Shown: in pieces, positions 18,076-41,929 of the stretch
How the letters are laid out: the number at the start of each line of letters is the position of its first letter
How positions within the stretch are numbered: position 1 is the stretch's first letter
Assembly (NCBI GenBank): GCA_965214095.1
Contig: OZ243938.1
Span: 3,584,001-3,648,000 of the forward strand
Length of the DNA: 64,000 nucleotides
Direction: 5' to 3'
Source: Candidatus Poribacteria bacterium
GTDB taxonomy: Bacteria > Poribacteria > WGA-4E > WGA-3G
The notes under the pieces: model-generated
What the model saw: only the letters and a program-made list of their open reading frames with translations
Told to the model about the DNA's origin: nothing
Databases searched by the model: none
Made by a program: the position numbers and the translations under genes

Positions 18076-21000
18076 ATGGCAGACAAAGAAAATCGATTTA
18101 ATCGTATATCTATTAGTATCGCCTCCCCTGAACAGATAAAGGATTGGGCAAAACGCACGTCCTGTAAGCGACGGAATCCGGCAAATGATGTATGGACATG
18201 TGCTGAAAAAGGCACTTGTGATTGCGGTGAAATCAAAAAAGCCGAAACTATTAATTATCGCAGTTTTCGCCCGGAGCAACAAGGTCTATTCTGTGAAGCT
18301 ACATTTGGTCCACAGAAAGATTTTGAGTGCAGTTGTGGAAAGTACAAACGTATTAAGCACAAAGGACTAATCTGTGACCAGTGTGGGGTTGAAGTTACAA
18401 AGTCTCAGGTTAGAAGAGAACGGCTCGGTTACATAAAACTTGCAACACCAGTATCTCATATATGGTTTTTCAAAGGGATACCATCCAGACTCGGCACATT
18501 CTTGGAACTTGCATCGCGCCAAGTCGAGAGAGTTCTCTACTTTGAAGCTTTTATTGTCACAGAGGTAACTGATGACAACTGCGGTTTAGCTGAAAAAGAT
18601 ATTCTTACTGAACCAGAAGTTATTGCAAAGCAACGCGAATTCCCCGATGCCTTTAAAGCTGGAACTGGAGCTGAGGCGATACAGGAACTGCTAAGTAAAA
18701 TTGACCTACCAGAAGATGTTAAAAAGTTTAAAGGAGAACTTGAGGAGACTTCAAGCCATCAGAAAAAAGTTAAACTCTCAAAACAATTGAAGATGGTCGC
18801 AGGTTTCGAAAAAGCAAGCATGCAACCCGATTGGATGATCCTTGAAGTGCTTCCAGTGATTAGTCCTGACCTACGTCCATTAGTATCTTTAGAAGGTGGT
18901 AGATTTGCTACAAGTGACCTGAACGATTTATACCGTCGCGTTATTAATAGGAACAACCGCCTACAGAAACTAATTGATCTACGTTCACCAGAAGTTATCC
19001 TCCGTAACGAAAAACGGATGCTTCAGGAATCTGTTGACGCGTTTTTGGATAACGGAAGACATGGACGCAAAGTCACAGGTCCGGGTAAACGCGCCCTAAA
19101 ATCTTTGTCTGATATTCTTAAAGGTAAAGTCGGACGGTTCCGTCAAAATTTGCTTGGGAAACGTGTGGACTATTCTGGCAGAAGTGTGATTGTCGTCGGT
19201 CCTGAATTAGAACTGCATCAGTGTGGCATACCGAAGTTAATGGCTGTGGAACTTTTCAAACCTTTCATTATTGAGAAACTGATGACATCGGGAGAAGCGC
19301 AGACTATAAAACGGGGCAAGCACTTGACCGATCACGTCACACCTGACTCGCCTGTCTGGGAGGCATTGGAGGAAGTCATCGCTGACCACCCTGTCCTCTT
19401 AAATCGTCCACCGACACTTCATCGTCTCGGAATTCAGGCGTTTATGCCTGTGCTGGTTGAAGGAAAATCCATACGAATTCCGCCACTTGTTTGTAAGGCA
19501 TTCAATGCTGATTTTGATGGAGACCAGATGGCTGTTCATGTGCCGCTCTCTATTGAGGCTCGTACGGAAGCAAAGATGTTACTGCTCAGTAGTGGGAACA
19601 TTCTAAAACCTTCCCACGGAGAACCCATTGCAGTTCCCGAACTTGACATGATTTTAGGGGCAAGTTTTCTTACCAAAGAACTTCCCGATCACAGAGAACA
19701 AGCAGAAAAACTACACGCTGCTTATGCTGATAGCTCCGATAAAAATAAGGTGTTCGCAACATTAGAAAGCGAGACTTGGGCAAAAAGACGGTTTACAACA
19801 CTTGATGAGGTTACACACGCACACGGTTGCGGCACGATCAAACTCCATGATTCTGTGGTTCTCTTTTTCAAAGAACATCGTGAACCTATCCTCACTACTG
19901 TCGGACGCGTTATTTTCAATGAAGTACTGCCTCATACAAACGGTACAGTTTCACTCTCATGGCCAGATGAAATATCAGGTCTTGAATTACCATTCTTCAA
20001 TGAGGAAGCACGAGGAAGACGGCTGTCAGAACTTGTCAAACAGTGTTTCAATGAGCTTGGGACTGCTGAAACTGTTTCTCTATTAGATCGATTACAGAAG
20101 CTTAGTTTTGAATATGCAACGCGGAGTGGCATTTCTCCGGGTATTAAGGACTATTTGATACCTGAAGAGAAGAAAAAAATCCTCAGGGATGCTCAGAAAC
20201 AGATTGATCTTCTCAGACAGCAAGAGGACCTTGAGGCGGAAGAATTTGAAAACGAAAAAATTCGGATATGGTCTGTCGCAGTGAATGAAGTTGGTGAGAC
20301 GTTGTTTACGGAACTCCCAGAAACGAAAGCATATCTGGTTGAACAAGGGAAAGAGGTAGAAGGATTTAGTCCCGTTCATCTGATGGCAGATAGCGGTGCA
20401 CGCGCACGGAAAAATCCATTCTCACAAATCAGTGCAATCGTCGGATTGAAGTCAAGACAAGATGGTGAAATCCTATCCACACCGATACAATCCTCATATC
20501 GCGAAGGTCTAGATGTACTTGATTACTTCACATCTACTTACGGGTCACGAAAAGGATTGGTGGATACGGCTATGAAAACTGCCGCATCCGGATACCTTAC
20601 ACGGAAACTTGTTGATGTCGCACAAGATGTTATGATTACCGAAGATGACTGCGGTACTATGAACGGTATCCTCAAGTTTACCACAGACGCTGGGTCCATC
20701 AGCTTTAAAATTAGTGGACGCATTACAGTTGAACCTGTGGTACATCCGTCAACAAAGGAAATATTGGTAGAAAGTGATACTTTCATTAGTCCACAGTTAG
20801 CACAGAGGATTGAAGCCGCTGAAGTGCCAAGTGTGCGTGTCCGGTCAATATTGACATGTGAGACGGAAAAAGGCGTTTGTGCAAGATGCTACGGTGCTGA
20901 TTTAACTTCGGGGCAACTTGCCAACGTAGGAGAAGCAATTGGTATCATCGCTGCACAATCTATTGGTGAACCCGGCACACAGTTGACAATGCGTACGTTC

Positions 21001-23685
21001 CATACAGGTGGCGTGGTTGAAGATGTCAGTGAAGGTCTGGCACGTAAGATTCTTGCGAAAACTTCAGGAACAGTGCGGTTTAGAGATTTCATTCCTGGAC
21101 GTACTGTAAATGAAATAGACGGGCTCTGGGTTGTAGACAAGGTGGCAGAACACCTTGACCAAGCTAAATATAAGGTCAAGAATGTACAACATCCTGAATG
21201 TCCGCTGCAACCTGATGAACTCCTTACTGAAAGACAATATCAAGAAAACATTGAACGGTATCCTGGGTTTGAAGGAGAACCTATCGTCTTTGAGGTAATC
21301 AAAGTAAACAAACCTGAGATTGTTGAGGAAAATTCAAATAATGAATTTTCATTACAAGAGGGACAGTACCTCACTGAACAGGAATACAGCATGTGTCTTC
21401 ATCGGTATTCATTGTTCCGAGTTTCTGAACCGCTGTACCGTGTTCAAAGTGTGAAACATCCTGAAATTTCATTGGAAACAGGTGTATTGTTGACAGAAAC
21501 AGATATGGAAGCATGGAAAGTTAAAATCCGACCTTTCACGGGTGAATGGGTTTATCAAACTGACAAAGGGGACCTCCTTACCGAAAGTGAATATCTGCAA
21601 CAACAGAAAGATGTTACAGCAGTCATGAAGTACCAAATTGAGTCTATTAAGGATGAGAGTTGTACGTATAAGGAAGGGGATTTACTTGAAGTTGAACAAG
21701 AAAGTCAACATCATATTGATTTTGATGATCCCGTCTATACCGTGAAAGATGTCAGTCCAGGTATAGATCTGTCTGAAGGTCAAGAGTATAGTGTCACTGA
21801 CTTACAGAGGGTACAGGAAGAAAATAAAACTTTTGAAGTCCAACGTCCTACTGCAAAATTGATGCGGGTAACACAAGTAAACCATCCTGAATGTCCGCTG
21901 AAACTTGGTGAAATGATTGATGACGACAGCTTAGAGACACTTCAGGATAAGTTCAGTGGATTTACTGCGGAACGACTCAGATATAGGATTACAGCTGTTC
22001 ATCATCCGGATTGTCCGTTAGACACAGAAGAGCTGCTTACTGAAAATGAGAAAAAGGCTGTGTTGAAAGCGTATCCAGGTTTTGAAGTAGATGTGGAAAA
22101 AAATGAAGGCGCATTTGAAGTTGAAAGACTCTATCGCGTCGTTGCATCACATCACCCAGACTTTCCAGTGTCTGAAGGTGAGATCATCACACAATCTGAG
22201 TCCAATCGGTACCGGCGCATCTTCAAAGGCTTTGACAATGAGAAACTACATATACGTGTCCAGGATGGCGAAGAGACTGAAGAGGTATTAACAGATACCG
22301 AATACAAAGCACTCGTCAAACAGCATAGAGAAACGGATACACCACCACCTGAATTTAAACTGGTATATCATATTCTTGCTGTTCACCATGAGGAATGTCC
22401 ATTTACCGCTGGACTACAGATTGATGAAACTGAATACAAACGGGGTCAACGTTTATATAAGGGATTTGATACGGAACGGGTATTTAAGGTTATCAAAATC
22501 AATGAACCAGATGCCGATGTGAAAGTTGATCAAACCCTTAGTGAGGCTGACTACAAGGAAGCATTATCAACTACTTCACGGAATACTTCTCGAGTTACCA
22601 AAGTTTTACATCCTAACTGTACGCTTGATATTGGTCAAGAGTTGAAAGATTGGGAATATAACACTGCCCTTGAACAATATCCAGGTGTTGTTGTTGATGG
22701 TTTGATCGAAACATTTCGGATAGAAATTATTATGGAAGATGGTGGACATAAATCTCACCTTATTCCAACAGGCTACTCCGTTTCTGTGAAAGATGGCGAT
22801 AGAGTTAACCTACAAAGTCCATTGGCAGAAAGACACGAAAAAAGCACTAACCTTGATATCGTCGTTGGTATTCCGAGGGTGACTGAACTCTTTGAAGCAC
22901 GTCGTCCGAAACGTGAAGACGCTGCCGAAATCGCTGAGATTGATGGACAACTACAACTTTCTGGGCAGAAAGCAGGCGTGCCTCAATACCGAATTGTAGA
23001 TGGTGCAACAAAAAGTCGTCTATATTCTATACCTGACGAGAAAAGACGAGTTGATGATGGGGACGATGTTGAAGCGGGACAACCACTAACTGATGGGTAT
23101 CTCAATCCACACGATATACTTACTATCGGTCGAACTACCCTCAATGGACATTCACTTGAAGGTGAAGAAGCACTTTGGACTTATCTTGTTGATGAAGTGC
23201 AGGCTGTCTATGGCGCAAACACTATTAACGACAAACACGTTGAAGTGATTGTACGTCAAATGCTCCAGAAGATACGGATCCTCACTGTGGGCGATACAAC
23301 GTTCTATGCAAACGACGAGGTTACCAGACACAAGTTCCACGCAGAAAACAGACGCGTTGAAGAAGAAGGTGGCACTCCCGCCACAGGTGAACCTGTCCTG
23401 CAGAGTATCAGTAAAGCATCGCTTAGCACTGAAAGTTTTATCTCCGCAGCGAGTTTCCAACAGACACCGAAAGTCCTAACCGATGCCGCTGTTGAAGGGC
23501 AAACCGACATGCTCACAGGTCTGAAGGAAAACGTAATCCTTGGTAGGCTTATCCCCGCTGGAACAGGTTTTTCTGAATGGCAGGAACTTAATGTGTCTTA
23601 TGATGCAATTGAAGACGAAGTTGAACCAGAAGTATTACCAGAAGAGCTGCCTGAACTGGAAGCCGAAGTCGTTGAAGAAAGGTAG
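18076..23685 (+). CDS. rpoC: DNA-directed RNA polymerase beta' subunit, 1869 aa, with a very large trigger-loop insertion
   Basis: NADFDGDQM catalytic motif, [44 protein letters not shown]. Confidence 0.99.
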
Positions 23686-23697
23686 ACAGACCACTAT

Positions 23698-23847
23698 TAT
23701 AGTGAATTATAAAATTAAGTGAACTTTTGCTTAAGAACTACGGTGTTCGTATTCGTGCAATTCATTGTGCCTCGGACATTCACAGGTAGGCGAGGTTTCC
23801 TAACCTCGTCTATGCAGAGTGTGCAAGTAATTTCAAAATCTACTATA
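23698..23847. mobile_element. MITE-like element with TATAGTG...ACTATA ends carrying internal REPs; related copies at 24411-24547, 35678-35780 and 40927-41175
   Basis: shared ends (tatagtgaattataaa / aatttcaaaatctactata) and a shared internal GTAGGCGAGGTTTCCTAAC hairpin. Confidence 0.65.
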
Positions 23848-23869
23848 ATCTGGTAATCAATCAAAAAGT

Positions 23870-23898
23870 TTGACTTTTTCGTGTGTTAGTAGTATTAT
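23870..23898 (+). promoter_or_regulatory. sigma70-type promoter of the post-rpoC noncoding RNA
   Basis: TTGACT-17 nt-TATTAT; predicted +1 near 23905. Confidence 0.55.
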
Positions 23899-23904
23899 AT
23901 ATTT

Positions 23905-24387
23905 AGCATCTTTGGATAGAGTTCTCACCTCAGGGTTTTCGCGTCCTGAGTCCTATCCGCACCCGTGAGAAAGTGTGTGGTGCTTGTGAGAAATCACTCG
24001 CGGCAGGCATACCGAGAGTTTAAACGCTTGTGGAGTCCAAATAAGACCTTCATATTTCCAATCGGGAAGGAGGCACGAGAGACGGAAGCAGGAAGAGTCA
24101 TTTAGGTTTCTACCTAATATAAGAACTAAGAACCCCAACGGTTTAGTGTGGGGTACATGTCAGTGGAGAATAAATGCCAAGGGAGAGGACAGGGTATACA
24201 CAAATAATCTATCTGTGTATACAGGAAAATAGAATTTCGTCTTAACTGGTATCGGTTGATACCAAAGAGAAATTAACGCTTTCTTCCCATGGTTGGTGGG
24301 TTGACAAACCCGGTTTCTGCAGAATCTGAAATTTATTCATAATTAATATAGATAACGCGCAAGATGAGAATCCTGCGCGTTTTTTTT
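23905..24387 (+). ncRNA. putative large ncRNA containing an IS200/IS605 TnpB-type omegaRNA scaffold (about 24000-24162) with 5' and 3' structured extensions
   Basis: motif string GGCATACCG..AACGCTTGTGGAG..TAAGACC..GGCA..GAAGCAGGAA..ACCCCA-hairpin-TGGGGT-ACATGTCA, typical of tnpB 3' ends; many additional hairpins; own promoter and terminator; no long ORF. Confidence 0.65.
24354..24387 (+). terminator. intrinsic terminator closing the ncRNA unit
   Basis: AACGCGCAAGAT-GAGA-ATCCTGCGCGTT followed by a T run. Confidence 0.75.
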
Positions 24388-24738
24388 GTACTTGGCAAAT
24401 CTGTGACTCTTATAGTGAAATGTAAAAACACGTGCACACTCCCTGGTAGATGCGGTTTCCTAACCGCATCTATGAGACAGAACAAACACCGGTTCGGTTA
24501 GGAAACCGAACCTACCGTAGTGTGTAAATAATTATGGTTTTACTATAAATGCGAATTTTTAGTTGCGGGGTTTGCAGTTACACTGTTTCTTGTTTGTCTA
24601 TCTTTATACCTTTTGTGTGTTACTACGCTATAAAAGACATAAGGATGGAATAAATTAAATTTAACATATCCAGTATTTTAGAAAATTAGAAAAAATAAAT
24701 AAACAGAATCACAAATAGTGATTAAAGGAGAACAAAAA

Positions 24739-27700
24739 TTGTTCCTGAAAACAAAATTGACACTTTCTTTAATATTTAATGTTTTACTTGTTTCCGTGTT
24801 TATGTTAGTTGCAACGCCGAGTTTTGCAACTGTTACCGTAACTGCACAGGTTACTGAGGTAGTAGATTCTTCTACTGGACCACCTATAGTCCAAGGTAAG
24901 AAGGTAGTTACGATAAAATATAGTGAGAATGCTGACCCCGAACCAACATTGAATGATTTTACAACAGATGGTTCTGAAAAACTCATTGATGCTGTGGCAG
25001 CCGATTCAGCTACACTCTCAGTTGAAATTGGTGGGAGTGGTGATACCTATACACTAACGTTTTTGGGTCCTGTTGATGGGTCCGGAGCCCCGATAATTCC
25101 AAACTTGAAATTATCTGGATATGAGATTGAAAACACTTTAGAAGATGATTCTGCTGATATAGCGATTGCTCCTGTCAGGGAATTTCTGCTTGAATTGAAT
25201 ACCATTGGAGGTAAAGGTTATGCCATTATCGCGAATTATACCAATGAGGATAATACGCTAAATAATCTAAGTGATCTTGCAAATGATCCTGCTGAGTACC
25301 CTCGACTTCCAGTTCTTGATGATCCAGATATGATTGTCAGATCTACTTGGTCAAATCATTCTGATGAACTGATGCCGAATCTTAGGAATCTCTTTACAAG
25401 GACTCCGGGTGGTACAATTAACTTGAGGGTTCAAGATAGTACAGGTGCAAAAGTCGGTGACATTCGCGATGTAATGATTAACGAGATAATGTGGGCAATT
25501 GACGAATCATTATTAGGTACTGGAAATGAGAGACGTGAACAGTGGATTGAAATCTGGAACACCAGAACCACACCAATTGCGCTTGGTAATATTCGCCTGT
25601 CAACTTCAAAACAGTATCCAGCACCTGATGAAGAGACCGATAGAGTGAGTAACATACCTGATTTTATAACTTCTTGGGAAGTTTTAGGTCAAGATGGTAA
25701 CTCCAATCCGAATGACCTGAAAGAATTTGTCTCCATGTATCGGACAAAAAAGGCAGATGGTTCAGCTCCTGAAAACTGGAATATATCTATGGAACTGTAT
25801 TATGCGAACTATAGAGGAACACCTGGTCAGGAAAACGCTCTTACAGGCATTCGGGCTGCACGTACTGTTCCAGTCACAGATACACCGGAAAAAACTACTT
25901 TTGTTATCAATGAAATCGGTAATATATCGGATGACACACTTGACTGGATTGAGATTAAGAACATCCATGCAGATGCACAATCATTAAAGAATTGGGCACT
26001 CTCCAAAATTACTGCATTCAATAATGAAATAGAGATCTATCGTTTTCCTGATAAGTCAATTCCCTCAGGTGGAATAGTGTTGTTAGTGAATAGACATCCT
26101 ATTGACACGCCGCTCGCGTCCGGGTTTGATTTGTCTGTGGATAATAGGTACGATCAAGACTTTGGAGCAGATAGCAATGTTTCTTATCTAATTGTTCCAG
26201 AGAATAAGATTGCAATTCCAAATAATAATGATTGGTTCCTTATTCTTCGGGACGGTAGTCCTTGGAATATAAAAGATGGCCGGAGTGTCTATAACTCAGG
26301 TTATCAACTACAGGATGTTGCCGGTCCGGTGCAAATTGAGTTGAAAGATATCAACGTTGAAGTGCCTCGTAAAGAGAAGAAAATAGATGGTACTGGTGGC
26401 GGTGATATTTGGGAAACAACACTATTCCCGATGAATGGTCGTGGTGAAAGTGGTGACAAAATCCTCAGACATGATCGTGACCTGAGTGCAAATGTCTGGG
26501 AACGTGACACTGAAAAACATGGTTGGGAAATACATGCTTTCAACCAAGCTGATTTCTCTGGTGTCGGTTATGACCGTAATGTTAGACCTGAAGCAAGATA
26601 CGGTGGAACACCCGGTTATGAAAACGATGTTAATAAAGGTAAAGCATCCGAATTTACTGATGGAACACTTATCATTAGTGAATTGATGCTCGCAGCCGAT
26701 GGTGGACGTTACCCACAGTGGATTGAACTTCATAACACTTCCAGGACCAATGGTATAGACCTTAGTGCTGACGGAAGTGATATAGATGGTAGCAATAAAG
26801 ATGATGGATGGCGGATGATTATTGAAAACCATAACTCAGGTTCATGGCGAGAATATAACCGCGATTTACTTATTACCATTAATTTGAAGGACTTCGGCGG
26901 TATAAAATATATACCACCGAATCAGACGATTCTTATCACATCCAGAAGAGCAACTAAGGTTTCAGATCGTGATCATTTTCCTGATCATCGGGTTAGTAGT
27001 GTTTGGGAAACAGAGACTGTTCGAAATGCCTTTGATATGATAAATAGAAAATCTTTGATACTGAATGCAGAAAACGGTTTCTATATTAAGATCGTTGATG
27101 GGGCAGGAAATGTTACCGATGAAGTTGGTAATCTTGATGGTCAAGATGCTGATTTTCGTAGAGGCATTGGTTTTGACGATGCTTATAGCTGGCACTGGCC
27201 GACTGAGATGACCGAAGATCGTAAGCGTACCTCATTGATTCGACTTATGGATGACACGTGGGGTGATGGTTCTGTACGAGGCGTATCAGGTGTAAGGTCT
27301 GGAACAGCCGGCACACCACGCAAAGGGGTACCAGATCGGTCTGTTGATGGTGATATAACAGGTGCTGTTGTGCCAATGGGTGTGAACACCCGTCATAGAG
27401 AGTATGCTTGGGTTCATGCTGTTGATACAGACTTTGAAAGCGTACAAGATACATACTATGGTGAAATAAGCGACATTAGTACGCCATTACATACAGCCGG
27501 TACACCATTGCCAGTATCCTTGTCCTTTTTCCGTCCATCACTGGAAGATGGTAAAGTCGTCATCCGTTGGACAACAGAATCTGAACTTGATAACGCAGGA
27601 TTTAATATCCTCCGTAGTCATAGCCGAAATGGTGAATTCGAACAGGTGAATGACAAACTGATCCAAGGTAAAGGTACAACAGCGGAACGTAGTATCTACA

Positions 27701-27867
27701 AATGGGTGGATGTTTCAGCGAAACCAGGTGTTGTCTATTATTACCAAATTGAAGATGTATCCTTCGCAGGTGAACGTTCAACGTTTACAACTACAAAGTT
27801 GAAAGGTTTGATCTCAGCTAAAAACAAACTCCCAATACTGTGGAGTGAATTGAAATCACAGAATTAA
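24739..27867 (+). CDS. large secreted/surface protein with lamin-tail-like (LTD) domains and a conserved C-terminal module
   Basis: signal peptide; INEIMW..WIEI, INEI..WIEI and ISELM..WIEL motifs; C-terminal LPVSLSFF..WTTESE..NAGFN..KL...WSELK; TTG start at 24739 chosen from the GGAG RBS and alignment with the 48179 paralog. Confidence 0.8.
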   Translation: MFLKTKLTLSLIFNVLLVSVFMLVATPSFATVTVTAQVTEVVDSSTGPPIVQGKKVVTIKYSENADPEPTLNDFTTDGSEKLIDAVAADSATLSVEIGGSGDTYTLTFLGPVDGSGAPIIPNLKLSGYEIENTLEDDSADIAIAPVREFLLELNTIGGKGYAIIANYTNEDNTLNNLSDLANDPAEYPRLPVLDDPDMIVRSTWSNHSDELMPNLRNLFTRTPGGTINLRVQDSTGAKVGDIRDVMINEIMWAIDESLLGTGNERREQWIEIWNTRTTPIALGNIRLSTSKQYPAPDEETDRVSNIPDFITSWEVLGQDGNSNPNDLKEFVSMYRTKKADGSAPENWNISMELYYANYRGTPGQENALTGIRAARTVPVTDTPEKTTFVINEIGNISDDTLDWIEIKNIHADAQSLKNWALSKITAFNNEIEIYRFPDKSIPSGGIVLLVNRHPIDTPLASGFDLSVDNRYDQDFGADSNVSYLIVPENKIAIPNNNDWFLILRDGSPWNIKDGRSVYNSGYQLQDVAGPVQIELKDINVEVPRKEKKIDGTGGGDIWETTLFPMNGRGESGDKILRHDRDLSANVWERDTEKHGWEIHAFNQADFSGVGYDRNVRPEARYGGTPGYENDVNKGKASEFTDGTLIISELMLAADGGRYPQWIELHNTSRTNGIDLSADGSDIDGSNKDDGWRMIIENHNSGSWREYNRDLLITINLKDFGGIKYIPPNQTILITSRRATKVSDRDHFPDHRVSSVWETETVRNAFDMINRKSLILNAENGFYIKIVDGAGNVTDEVGNLDGQDADFRRGIGFDDAYSWHWPTEMTEDRKRTSLIRLMDDTWGDGSVRGVSGVRSGTAGTPRKGVPDRSVDGDITGAVVPMGVNTRHREYAWVHAVDTDFESVQDTYYGEISDISTPLHTAGTPLPVSLSFFRPSLEDGKVVIRWTTESELDNAGFNILRSHSRNGEFEQVNDKLIQGKGTTAERSIYKWVDVSAKPGVVYYYQIEDVSFAGERSTFTTTKLKGLISAKNKLPILWSELKSQN

Positions 27868-41308: not shown

Positions 41309-41929
41309 ATGTCCGTTTTGACACTGACGGTTAATATGGAAACCTATTCGGAAATAGCACAAGTGGAAGATTTTGATACCGAACAGGAACGCGAACTTAT
41401 CTTGCGATGCCAAGAGCGAGATTCAGCTGCGATGGGAACGCTCATAGTGCAATACCAGCACTGGGTGTATAATATCGCTTATGGTATACTGGGTCATCAT
41501 GAAGATGCGGAGGACGCGGCGCATGACGCGTTCCTCTCTGTTTGGCAAAATATAGATAGTTTCAAATTCCGATCAAGGTTTTCTACATGGCTGTACCGAA
41601 TTGTGAAGAATAAATGCCTGAATGTAATTGATCAACGAAAACGTAGAAAAACGGATCCAATGGATATTGATGACTCTCAACCGTGGGTGCCGCTTGACAA
41701 TACGACCCCTGAACAGGAAGTACTTCGCACTGAACAGAGTGAAATTCTACATGCTGCACTTGGTAGATTGAAAGAGAGTTATCGGACGATCTTGATCTTG
41801 CGTGAATTACGTGAACTTTCTTATGAAGAGATAGCGGAAGTGCTGAACTGCACACTGGGACGCGTCAAATCCCGATTGCACGAGGCACGAAAAGCTTTGA
41901 GGGAAGAACTTGAACGAATAGAATGGTAA
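41309..41929 (+). CDS. ECF RNA polymerase sigma factor (RpoE/SigW-like)
   Basis: DAEDA.HDAF, FSTWLYRI..N, LRE..ELSYEEIA..L....G.VKSRL. Confidence 0.93.
   Translation: MSVLTLTVNMETYSEIAQVEDFDTEQERELILRCQERDSAAMGTLIVQYQHWVYNIAYGILGHHEDAEDAAHDAFLSVWQNIDSFKFRSRFSTWLYRIVKNKCLNVIDQRKRRKTDPMDIDDSQPWVPLDNTTPEQEVLRTEQSEILHAALGRLKESYRTILILRELRELSYEEIAEVLNCTLGRVKSRLHEARKALREELERIEW

What the first reader, a model, noticed from the sequence alone, without database searches (positions are those of the whole stretch)
23870..24387. Orphan TnpB-type omegaRNA scaffold expressed as its own promoter-to-terminator RNA gene, with no tnpB
Seen: bases 24000-24162 carry, in order, GCGGCAGGCATACCG, AACGCTTGTGGAG, TAAGACC, GGCA, GAAGCAGGAA, a terminal ACCCCA/TGGGGT hairpin and ATGTCA. 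Established: this is the pattern of IS200/IS605 right ends, which encode the TnpB omegaRNA; the guide is whatever follows the TCA end, here GTGGAGAATAAATGCC from 24163. Seen: there is no tnpB ORF or remnant upstream. In its place are a sigma70-like promoter (23870-23898) and new 5' hairpins (GGATAG/CTATCC with CTCAGG/CCTGAG, GCACC/GGTGC, GTGA/TCAC), and an intrinsic terminator follows at 24354-24387. Inference: a domesticated, trans-acting guide RNA for a TnpB or nuclease-dead TnpB (TldR-like) encoded elsewhere, or an omegaRNA-derived ncRNA with a new function, fixed next to rpoC. I found no exact match to the putative guide inside this window.
Basis: partly seen in the sequence, partly recalled or inferred. 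Interest (0 to 1): 0.85.

Follow-up and report, generated by a model that had tools for sequence, protein, structure and literature searches.

The report
Gene-less TnpB guide-RNA mini-transposon relic
The segment downstream of rpoC is a worn, nuclease-less miniature copy of a TnpB-type (IS200/IS605) jumping gene that still carries the transposon's promoter and a complete guide-RNA scaffold, which is a real but already described kind of element rather than a newly domesticated RNA gene.

Summary
Every motif sits where stated. A covariance model built only from relatives' scaffolds hits window 23996-24162 full length (124.9 bits, E 2.5e-30), the only hit in 64 kb. No tnpB ORF is present.

The interpretation needs changing. 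The promoter, 5' hairpins and scaffold together form one copy of a multi-copy, tnpB-less IS200/IS605 mini-element family (PATE-like, "standalone omegaRNA") found in this Poribacteria genus.

- The window copy has lost its left-end hairpin, so it should be immobile.
- It also lacks a 67-85 nt internal spacer that its ortholog keeps.
- Only one sister species (G051) holds an orthologous copy, which diverges at the rate of neighbouring non-coding DNA (85-92%) and has its TCA end mutated.
- A third species (G021) has an independent insertion about 170 nt away.
- The terminator predates the element.
- The guide has no TAM-flanked target in the genome.
- The cognate TnpB type is absent. The closest, two intact IS-B copies, is 73% identical.

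Verdict: a decaying mini-transposon, a new member of a known kind. The family's conserved about 95-nt structured 5' leader is the only feature I found undescribed.

The parts
23846..23869 (+). Inner remnant of the transposon left end. The left-end hairpin and the TTATC target motif that should lie upstream are missing, replaced by a high-copy 65-nt repeat at 23785-23849.
   Evidence: Homology to the G051 ortholog starts at 23846. G051 and G021 keep the hairpin region CTTC(A/G)GTGT(A/C)AAAACCCCG... upstream of this point. 23785-23849 matches hundreds of genomic sites.
23870..23898 (+). Transposon-derived sigma70-like promoter (TTGACT, 17 nt, TATTAT)
   Evidence: 10 of 12 matches. About 80% identical over 23856-23909 to the promoter region inside the left end of IS family A. 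The -35 TTGAC is at least 90% conserved in position in 19 aligned copies.
23903..23995 (+). Structured 5' leader module of the mini-element family: closing stem (U)AGCAUC/GGUGCU, long hairpin GGAUAG..CUAUCC with inner CUCAGG/CCUGAG, a small hairpin, and GUGA-GAAA-UCAC
   Evidence: 51 matches in 11 of 40 genus genomes. 0 of 26 copies with enough downstream sequence are followed by tnpB. 0 of 80 tnpB loci carry it. Consensus fold has 30 pairs, 9 with compensatory changes. The window copy folded alone is unremarkable, z -0.88.
23996..24162 (+). TnpB omegaRNA scaffold ('type W'), ending at the right-end cleavage motif ATGTCA. It includes the right-end hairpin ACCCCA(24132)...TGGGGT(24154).
   Evidence: Model R1: 124.9 bits, E 2.5e-30, model positions 1-158 of 158. 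Same-strand R1 hits start at the 3' end of tnpB in 67 of 80 tnpB loci. 20 of 29 pairs covary, 95.7% of cells paired, 0 of 500 shuffles reach this.
24163..24182 (+). Guide segment (flanking DNA transcribed after the right end): GTGGAGAATAAATGCCAAGG
   Evidence: Position follows the IS200/IS605 rule (established knowledge). The right-end boundary is confirmed by comparing the G021 insertion with the window's uninterrupted site. No second exact 12-mer in the genome. The one 16-mer with 1 mismatch (window 41603) lacks the TTATC motif.
24270..24388 (+). Older rpoC-downstream segment ending in an intrinsic terminator (24354-24388). It is context, not part of the element.
   Evidence: Present in G051 (87%), G021 (74-76%, there split by another mini-element) and G044 (73%).

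Best explanation
Window 23846-24162 is a left-end-truncated copy of a tnpB-less IS200/IS605 (IS1341-type) mini-element. It is PATE-like, or in OMEGA terms a 'standalone omegaRNA'.

A complete element of this family, in order:
- TTATC target motif and left-end hairpin
- the transposon's own promoter
- a roughly 95-nt structured leader
- usually a 70-100 nt spacer
- the TnpB omegaRNA scaffold, which in full-length elements overlaps the last ~40 codons of tnpB
- the right-end hairpin and the ...ATGTCA cleavage site

The guide is the flanking DNA that follows.

Shown:
- The element inserted into the rpoC 3' region, upstream of the pre-existing terminator, before G000 and G051 diverged.
- The G000 copy has since lost the left-end hairpin and the internal spacer.

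Inferred:
- It can no longer be excised or moved by a TnpA.
- It is probably still transcribed, from its own promoter and/or by read-through from rpoC, up to the old terminator.
- The RNA could at most be loaded in trans by the two intact IS-B TnpB copies of the genome, which are 73% identical to the cognate TnpB type.
- With no TTATC-flanked target for its guide in the genome, the complex would be idle. The locus is drifting neutrally.
For: Homology to real transposon ends:
- 24024-24094 is 83-85% identical to the sequence just 3' of the zinc-ribbon region of the two intact IS-B tnpB genes of the same genome.
- 23856-23909 is 80% identical to the promoter inside IS-A left ends.

Family model:
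- R1 was built from 14 relatives' scaffolds without the window or G051, with 29 pairs of which 14 covary.
- It hits 23996-24162 at 124.9 bits, the only hit in the window.
- It hits the tnpB 3' end in 67 of 80 tnpB loci.

tnpB-less family:
- Both halves recur 75-100 nt apart in several relatives.
- The complete 327-nt G021 element has 16-59 matches in each of 5 genomes.
- The 5' module has 51 matches in 11 of 40 genus genomes.
- In 26 of 26 copies with enough sequence, a right-end motif follows 167-309 nt downstream, with no tnpB beyond its terminal codons.

Mobility:
- G021 carries a complete copy inserted after TTTTTTATCA at a different site. It splits a sequence that is continuous in the window at 24322-24345.
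- TTATC precedes 12 of 14 left ends examined.

Decay:
- The left-end hairpin is absent in the window but present in G051.
- 67 nt present in G051 are missing at 23995/23996.
- Window against G051 identity: leader 85%, scaffold 90%, flanks 87-92%.
- The window has 2 non-standard pairs in the scaffold.
- G051's end reads TTA.

Partner and target:
- The best TnpB in the genome against a type-W TnpB is IS-B at 72-73%.
- IS-B keeps the D/E/D motifs.
- The guide has no TAM-flanked match.

Literature (passages read):
- PATE-like elements 'often encode omegaRNAs' that must be acted on in trans by TnpB (PMC10055086).
- Standalone omegaRNAs are mobilized and function in trans (PMC10691335).
Against: - The scaffold is still nearly intact. 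Its model score is within the range of copies beside intact tnpB (131-178 bits for type W, at most 92 for type B). The promoter hexamers are also good, so complete loss of function is not shown.
- The locus has survived at least one speciation (G000/G051).
- An RNA-labelled public run holds an adapter-flanked 293-nt contig (depth 29.5). It covers 23947-23998, then 85 other letters, then 24009-24116 at about 96% identity. This hints that a close relative's copy is transcribed. However, X1 and X2 gave identical tables and may be one data set, DNA can be present in RNA libraries, and contigs cannot show ends or levels.
- Whether IS-B TnpB accepts a type-W scaffold is untested. The 3' halves of the two scaffold types differ.
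- Relatives' loci reached only about 1.5 kb beyond rpoC, so an element further downstream would have been missed.
Confidence: 0.85

Rival explanations
1. Domesticated guide-RNA gene. After immobilisation the host kept the promoter-omegaRNA-guide unit as a trans-acting guide for a TnpB or a nuclease-dead TnpB (TldR-like), to repress or cut a specific target, or as an omegaRNA-derived RNA with a new role.
For: - It is immobilised, since the left end is lost, yet promoter and scaffold are well preserved.
- It is retained in two species.
- There is a possible RNA signal.
- The guide's first 20 nt differ at only one position between G000 and G051.
Against: - It is not conserved above the local non-coding background: 90% against 85-92%.
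- The spacer is deleted in one lineage and TCA has become TTA in the other.
- It is absent from 27 of 29 relatives' rpoC loci.
- There is no TAM-flanked target. The three 16-mers with up to 2 mismatches are about what chance gives (my estimate is about 3 for 10.5 Mb of two strands).
- No clearly nuclease-dead TnpB was seen. Of 10 representative TnpB ORFs, 7 align D/E/D and 3 are ambiguous in the E column.
- Three other tnpB-less scaffolds lie elsewhere in the same genome.
Confidence: 0.05
2. Still-working selfish guide. The RNA is expressed and loaded by IS-B TnpB in trans, and cuts any incoming or sister 'empty' allele (TTATC followed by GTGGAG...). This would restore the element by recombination, so the copy persists as a guide-only parasite of TnpB.
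For: - Homing needs only the guide, a TnpB and flanking homology, not the left end (mechanism as described in PMC10055086).
- The scaffold is intact.
- Two intact IS-B tnpB copies are present.
- Standalone omegaRNAs work in trans (PMC10691335).
Against: - Without TnpA excision no empty allele arises in the cell.
- The cognate type-W TnpB is absent from the genome.
- Cross-recognition by a 73%-identical TnpB is unknown.
- No empty-site allele could be reconstructed, because relatives' intergenic regions do not align upstream of 24270.
Confidence: 0.1
3. Chance resemblance or mis-assembly. The motifs look like an omegaRNA by accident, or the region is an assembly artefact of repeats.
For: The element is flanked by very high-copy repeats. 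Rfam gives no hit.
Against: - The family model gives E 2.5e-30.
- The orthologous locus in G051 has the same right-end junction.
- A DNA-run contig spans 23818-24438 without a difference, though it may be the source sample.
Confidence: 0.01

Closest known systems
PATE-like minimal IS200/IS605 elements that encode omegaRNAs (Geobacillus stearothermophilus ISGst families; Meers et al. 2023, preprint PMC10055086, passages read)
   Same: - No protein-coding gene.
- Transposon ends with hairpins.
- The omegaRNA scaffold abuts the right end, and the guide is the flank.
- It must rely on TnpA and TnpB encoded elsewhere.
- It belongs to a multi-copy family beside full-length tnpB elements.
   Different: - This copy has lost its left-end hairpin and target motif.
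- The family carries its own conserved, structured ~95-nt leader behind the promoter. That leader was found in none of 80 tnpB-bearing loci.
- Copies with the same leader carry at least four right-end/scaffold types.
- The host is a sponge-associated Poribacteria lineage. A search for 'Poribacteria' plus 'TnpB' found 0 papers.
- The supplements of the paper, which show its PATEs, could not be seen.
Standalone omegaRNAs of OMEGA systems (attributed to Altae-Tran et al. 2021 in PMC10691335; passage read, original paper not read)
   Same: An omegaRNA locus without an effector or transposase, in the same genome as effector-containing loci, evidently mobilised. Such loci are reported to work in trans with compatible effectors.
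   Different: No test of trans function here. The nearest effector in the genome is only 73% identical to the cognate type.
Full-length IS1341-type elements of the same genome (IS-B, 1380 bp, 358-aa TnpB, 2 copies) and type-W elements of relatives (394-aa TnpB)
   Same: - The scaffold core (ACGCCTGTGGAGTCCAAATAAGACC ... GGCACGAGAGACGGAAGCAGGAA) is shared.
- The right-end hairpin has a TTTAG loop.
- The end motif is ...TCA.
   Different: tnpB is missing except for its last ~35 codons. The 5' part is a different module. The 3' half of the scaffold is type W, not type B.
TldR guide RNAs (TnpB-like nuclease-dead repressors; Wiegand et al., only the abstract in the listing was seen; details recalled)
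   Same: An omegaRNA-derived guide used away from a mobile context.
   Different: TldR guides lie next to the tldR gene and match a host promoter (recalled). Here there is no adjacent or identifiable dead TnpB and no target match.

Membership tests
TnpB omegaRNA (right-end-encoded guide RNA of IS200/IS605-family elements) | Scaffold homologous to the sequence overlapping and following the 3' end of tnpB | tested here: met
   Model R1 hits start at the tnpB 3' end, on the same strand, in 67 of 80 tnpB loci. The window scores 124.9 bits over the full model. tblastn finds TnpB aa 360-386 inside the scaffold.
TnpB omegaRNA (right-end-encoded guide RNA of IS200/IS605-family elements) | Conserved secondary structure supported by covariation | tested here: met
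   14 of 29 pairs have compensatory changes in 14 sequences. 20 of 29 pairs do in 66 distinct sequences, with 95.7% of cells paired against 28-46% when partners are slid, and 0 of 500 shuffles reaching this (that alignment was fitted to the model). The window copy has 2 non-standard pairs.
TnpB omegaRNA (right-end-encoded guide RNA of IS200/IS605-family elements) | Ends at the transposon right-end cleavage motif, with the guide beginning in the flank | tested here: met
   ...GGGGTACATGTCA|G at 24162/24163 aligns with ...GAGTATGTCA| of 13 other type-W copies whose flanks diverge there. The boundary is confirmed by comparing the G021 insertion with the window's uninterrupted site.
TnpB omegaRNA (right-end-encoded guide RNA of IS200/IS605-family elements) | Transcribed and bound by a TnpB that it guides to TAM-flanked DNA | not testable with these tools
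   Only a weak hint of transcription exists, from contigs in RNA-labelled runs X1/X2. Binding and cleavage were not tested.
PATE-like non-autonomous IS200/IS605 mini-element | No protein-coding gene between the ends | tested here: met
   For the family, 0 of 26 copies have a tnpB.
PATE-like non-autonomous IS200/IS605 mini-element | Both subterminal hairpins (left and right end), with the target motif 5' of the left end | tested here: not met
   The right-end hairpin is present (24132-24154). The left-end hairpin and TTATC are absent in the window copy. They are present in the complete G021 copy and degenerate in the G051 ortholog. The window copy is therefore a truncated derivative, not a complete member.
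PATE-like non-autonomous IS200/IS605 mini-element | Dispersed multiple copies / evidence of transposition | tested here: met
   This holds at family level. There are 19 and 16 leader copies in G003 and G020, near-identical dispersed copies, and an independent insertion in G021 matched by an uninterrupted site in the window. In G000 itself the leader is single-copy.
TldR-type domesticated guide RNA | Nuclease-dead TnpB partner and a guide complementary to a host target next to a TAM | tested here: not met
   No TAM-flanked guide match. 7 of 10 representative TnpB ORFs align D/E/D and 3 are ambiguous, with none clearly dead. Not all 22 matches were examined.
Any curated Rfam family (including IS605- and OMEGA-related models, if present) | Match at the family's gathering score | tested here: not met
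   0 matches in the window. At E up to 10 there are only terminator-like and spurious matches in 23600-24750.

The most novel reading that the evidence does not exclude
The tnpB-less elements of this genus are not mere deletion debris. They may form a lineage of 'guide-only' parasites of TnpB, defined by their own conserved promoter plus a ~95-nt structured leader. That leader has been recombined onto at least four different omegaRNA scaffolds and right ends. It would serve to express, stabilise or preferentially load guide RNAs onto TnpB proteins made by full-length elements. On this reading the rpoC copy, though immobile, is still expressed and competes for TnpB.
Probability: 0.2. Interest if true: 0.55.

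Novelty: new member of a known kind. Interest (0 to 1): 0.27.

Why it matters
As it stands, this is a clean, well-documented example of a known phenomenon in an uncultivated sponge-symbiont lineage. Guide-RNA scaffolds outlive their nuclease genes as miniature transposons, and they can look like stand-alone RNA genes because they carry the transposon's own promoter.

It matters mainly as a caution for annotation. Promoter, structured RNA and terminator next to a housekeeping gene do not make a domesticated RNA.

It also points to the family's conserved 5' leader, which is unexplained. Dozens of natural copies with different scaffolds are available for testing it.

Tried and rejected
- **Rfam:** no hit at gathering score for the whole window and nothing relevant at E up to 10. 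No public covariance model could be used, so I built one (R1).
- **Single-sequence folding of the leader:** MFE -24.6 kcal/mol, z -0.88, and a fold that differs from the family consensus. The window copy gives no support on its own.
- **IS-A 5'UTR comparison:** the stretch I folded was mis-placed by about 17 nt and says nothing. That the leader derives from an IS-A-like 5'UTR rests only on 80% identity over 23856-23909 and a resemblance seen by eye.
- **First fold call:** one search failed on a length limit. I resent it without the long item.
- **Guide targets:** a near-match with 1 mismatch in 16 at window 41603 was rejected because it lacks TTATC.
- **Empty site for the window's own insertion:** relatives' intergenic DNA does not align upstream of 24270, so none could be defined.
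- **Sequencing runs:** X3 (RNA only by guess) and X7 (kind unknown, identical to the window, possibly the source sample) add no independent evidence. Stretches 23862-23942 and 24117-24216 had no cover in X1/X2, which proves nothing.
- **My first guess of a cyanobacterium** was wrong. Record titles of TnpB relatives name Candidatus Poribacteria.
- **Earlier notes of this scan:** none for this place or sequence.

Full report
**1. What is there**

Window 18076-23685 encodes the RNA polymerase beta' subunit (five Rpb1 domains). The next gene (24718-27867) carries a lamin-tail domain. The 1-kb spacer between them holds the finding.

- The promoter-like site TTGACT-17-TATTAT is at 23870-23898.
- A GC-rich hairpin plus T8 is at 24354-24388 on the + strand (and the alignments).
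- No ORF of note lies in between.
- Rfam has no match at gathering score in the whole window and nothing relevant at E up to 10.
- On both sides, 23690-23850 and 24390-24560 are very high-copy repeats, with up to about 380 and about 640 BLAST matches per 20-nt bin. The element itself has 1-10.

**2. It is a real TnpB guide-RNA scaffold**

The window's genome (5.2 Mb, 41% G+C) has 22 matches each to the two TnpB Pfam families. It also has four full-length Y1 tnpA genes plus a fragment.

Seven other places in the genome resemble 23997-24094:
- Two lie directly 3' of intact tnpB genes. This is 'IS-B', 1380 bp, 2 copies 95% alike, with a 358-aa TnpB that has D/E/D.
- Two lie next to tnpB remnants.
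- Three have no tnpB nearby.

An alignment of 34 copies from 20 genomes shows two scaffold types that share a core and differ in the 3' half. Type B ends in GAGTATCA. Type W ends in GAGTATGTCA. The window is type W.

In relatives, type-W scaffolds overlap the last ~40 codons of a 394-aa tnpB.

I built covariance model R1 from 14 type-W scaffolds of relatives, leaving out the window and its ortholog. It has 29 pairs, 14 with compensatory changes.
- It hits window 23996-24162 over its full length at 124.9 bits, E 2.5e-30. This is the only hit in the 64 kb.
- In 80 tnpB loci fetched with the IS-B TnpB from the species-representative genome collection, it gives 69 hits. 67 of them start at the 3' end of the tnpB match on the same strand.
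- On those hits, 20 of 29 pairs covary and 95.7% of cells are paired. The figure is 28-46% with slid partners, and 0 of 500 shuffles reach it. That alignment is fitted to the model, so it leans towards it.

**3. The promoter and '5' hairpins' belong to a mini-transposon family**

In same-genus relatives the 5' part (23887-23999) and the scaffold recur together, 75-100 nt apart and without tnpB. All TnpB relatives that carry titles are named Candidatus Poribacteria, except 4 of 80.
- The 5' module alone (23900-23995) has 51 matches in 11 of 40 genus genomes, with 19 in G003 and 16 in G020.
- Of 30 fetched loci, 26 have enough downstream sequence. In all 26 a right-end motif follows 167-309 nt later, and nothing of tnpB is found beyond its terminal codons (aa 323-393 at most).
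- None of the 80 tnpB-bearing loci carries the module within 1.5 kb upstream.
- Copies with the same module carry at least four scaffold/right-end types.
- The module's -35 and -10 hexamers are conserved in position.
- The transcribed part folds in the family consensus into a closing stem, a long two-tier hairpin and two small hairpins. That is 30 pairs, 9 with compensatory changes.
- The window copy folded alone is unremarkable, z -0.88.
- The promoter-proximal 54 nt are 80% identical to the left-end promoter of another resident element, IS-A (3 copies, 1428 bp).

**4. History of the locus**

Of 29 relatives' rpoC-downstream loci, two hold an element.

G051 (rpoC 3' end 96-97% identical) has the orthologous copy with the same right-end junction. 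Compared with the window it shows:
- a recognisable though degenerate left-end hairpin region, which is duplicated
- 67 extra nt between leader and scaffold
- TTA instead of TCA at the end

Identity between the window and G051:

| Segment | Identity |
|---|---|
| Leader | 85% |
| Scaffold | 90% |
| Flank after the right end | 87% |
| Older terminator segment | 87% |
| Region upstream of the next gene | 92% |

This shows no excess constraint on the scaffold.

G021 (rpoC 89%) has a complete 327-nt mini-element with both hairpins. It is inserted after TTTTTTATCA about 170 nt further downstream, inside the segment that is continuous in the window at 24322-24345. That is an independent insertion. 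It also fixes the element boundaries.

TTATC precedes 12 of 14 left ends examined. The two exceptions are the G051 copies.

The terminator at 24354-24388 is part of the older segment shared with G021, G051 and G044, so it was not acquired for the RNA.

In the window the homology to G051 stops at 23846. Upstream of that lies a 65-nt high-copy repeat instead of the left-end hairpin.

**5. How it most likely works now**

Established knowledge for IS200/IS605 (passages of PMC10055086 read):
- TnpA excises the element using both end hairpins.
- The omegaRNA, whose guide is the right flank, directs TnpB to the rejoined empty site (TAM plus guide).
- Recombination then restores the element.

For the window copy:
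- Lacking the left end, it should not be excised (inference).
- Its guide GTGGAGAATAAATGCC... has no second exact 12-mer in the genome. The only 1-mismatch 16-mer (window 41603) lacks TTATC.
- The cognate type-W TnpB is not in the genome. The nearest is IS-B at 72-73% identity.
- Transcription from the conserved promoter, and/or read-through from rpoC into its old terminator, is plausible.

Transcription has only weak support. RNA-labelled runs X1 and X2 gave identical tables and are possibly one data set. They hold an adapter-flanked 293-nt contig (depth 29.5; adapters recognised from memory) covering 23947-23998, then 85 other letters, then 24009-24116. They also hold a 171-nt contig (depth 4.7) covering 24217-24387 that stops at the terminator. 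Contigs cannot show ends or levels, and DNA may be present in such libraries.

**6. Comparison with what is known, and verdict**

Gene-less PATE-like IS200/IS605 elements that 'often encode omegaRNAs' needing TnpB in trans are described (PMC10055086). So are standalone omegaRNAs that are mobilised and work in trans (PMC10691335).

The window element is a truncated member of that kind. It meets the scaffold, structure, right-end and gene-less criteria. It fails the left-end criterion.

The TldR-like domestication reading lacks a target, lacks a dead TnpB (7 of 10 representative TnpB ORFs align D/E/D, 3 are ambiguous), and lacks excess conservation.

A search for 'Poribacteria' with 'TnpB' found no paper. 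I looked for no description of the conserved leader beyond Rfam and the papers read. Supplements were closed and may show comparable elements.

Earlier notes of this scan on other genomes reached the same kind of verdict. They are leads, not evidence.

Confidence in the mini-element relic reading is 0.85. Interest is low to moderate.

Noticed in passing
window 23690-23849 and 24390-24560: Very high-copy short repeats fill the rest of the rpoC-downstream spacer. They contain hairpins such as CGAGGTTTCCTAACCTCG and GGTTCGGTTAGGAAACCGAACC. One 65-nt unit (23785-23849) has dozens of copies at 95-98% identity, and up to about 640 BLAST matches fall in a single 20-nt bin. They look like REP/MITE-type elements.
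   Followed up: partly
window 24270-24388: A segment downstream of rpoC ending in the intrinsic terminator is conserved in G051, G021 and G044 (73-87%). An RNA-run contig covers 24217-24387 and stops at the terminator. It could be the rpoC 3'UTR or a small RNA. In G021 it is split by a mini-element.
   Followed up: partly
L002:1501-1650, L005:1437-1570, L008:1442-1597 (own genome, outside the window): Three further type-B omegaRNA scaffolds lie without a tnpB nearby. The one in L005 keeps the end of the leader and the spacer, and abuts a coding region that reads like WD40 repeats. The one in L002 has a possible left-end hairpin about 230 nt upstream.
   Followed up: partly
L109:277-1100 (G051, between rpoC and the element): The left-end region of the orthologous element is present twice, about 730 nt apart, with several other repeat units nested between. 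The spacer after rpoC seems to be a hot spot for small mobile repeats.
   Followed up: partly
window 41603-41618: A 16-mer that differs from the putative guide at one position (GTGAAGAATAAATGCC), preceded by CCGAATT and not by TTATC. It is most likely chance.
   Followed up: yes
L113-L116 (own genome, IS605 'family D'): The four tnpA+tnpB elements (about 1.8 kb, 98% alike) have end hairpins with the same CTTTAG loop as the tnpB-only families and the mini-elements. Their stems and end motif (...GTTGAA) differ. Whether their TnpA can move the other families is open.
   Followed up: partly
L024, L025 (own genome): TnpB-like ORFs of 527-549 aa lack the zinc-finger cysteines, and a proline aligns at the RuvC glutamate column (a glutamate lies three residues later). 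They may be a different TnpB branch or inactive.
   Followed up: no
own genome, contig C2 (32,066 bases): This contig has 64% G+C against 41% for the main contig. It may be a foreign or contaminant piece of the assembly.
   Followed up: no
window 18076-23685: The beta' subunit ORF is 1869 aa, long for a bacterial rpoC. Rpb1 domain 5 matches in two stretches, suggesting a large lineage-specific insertion.
   Followed up: no
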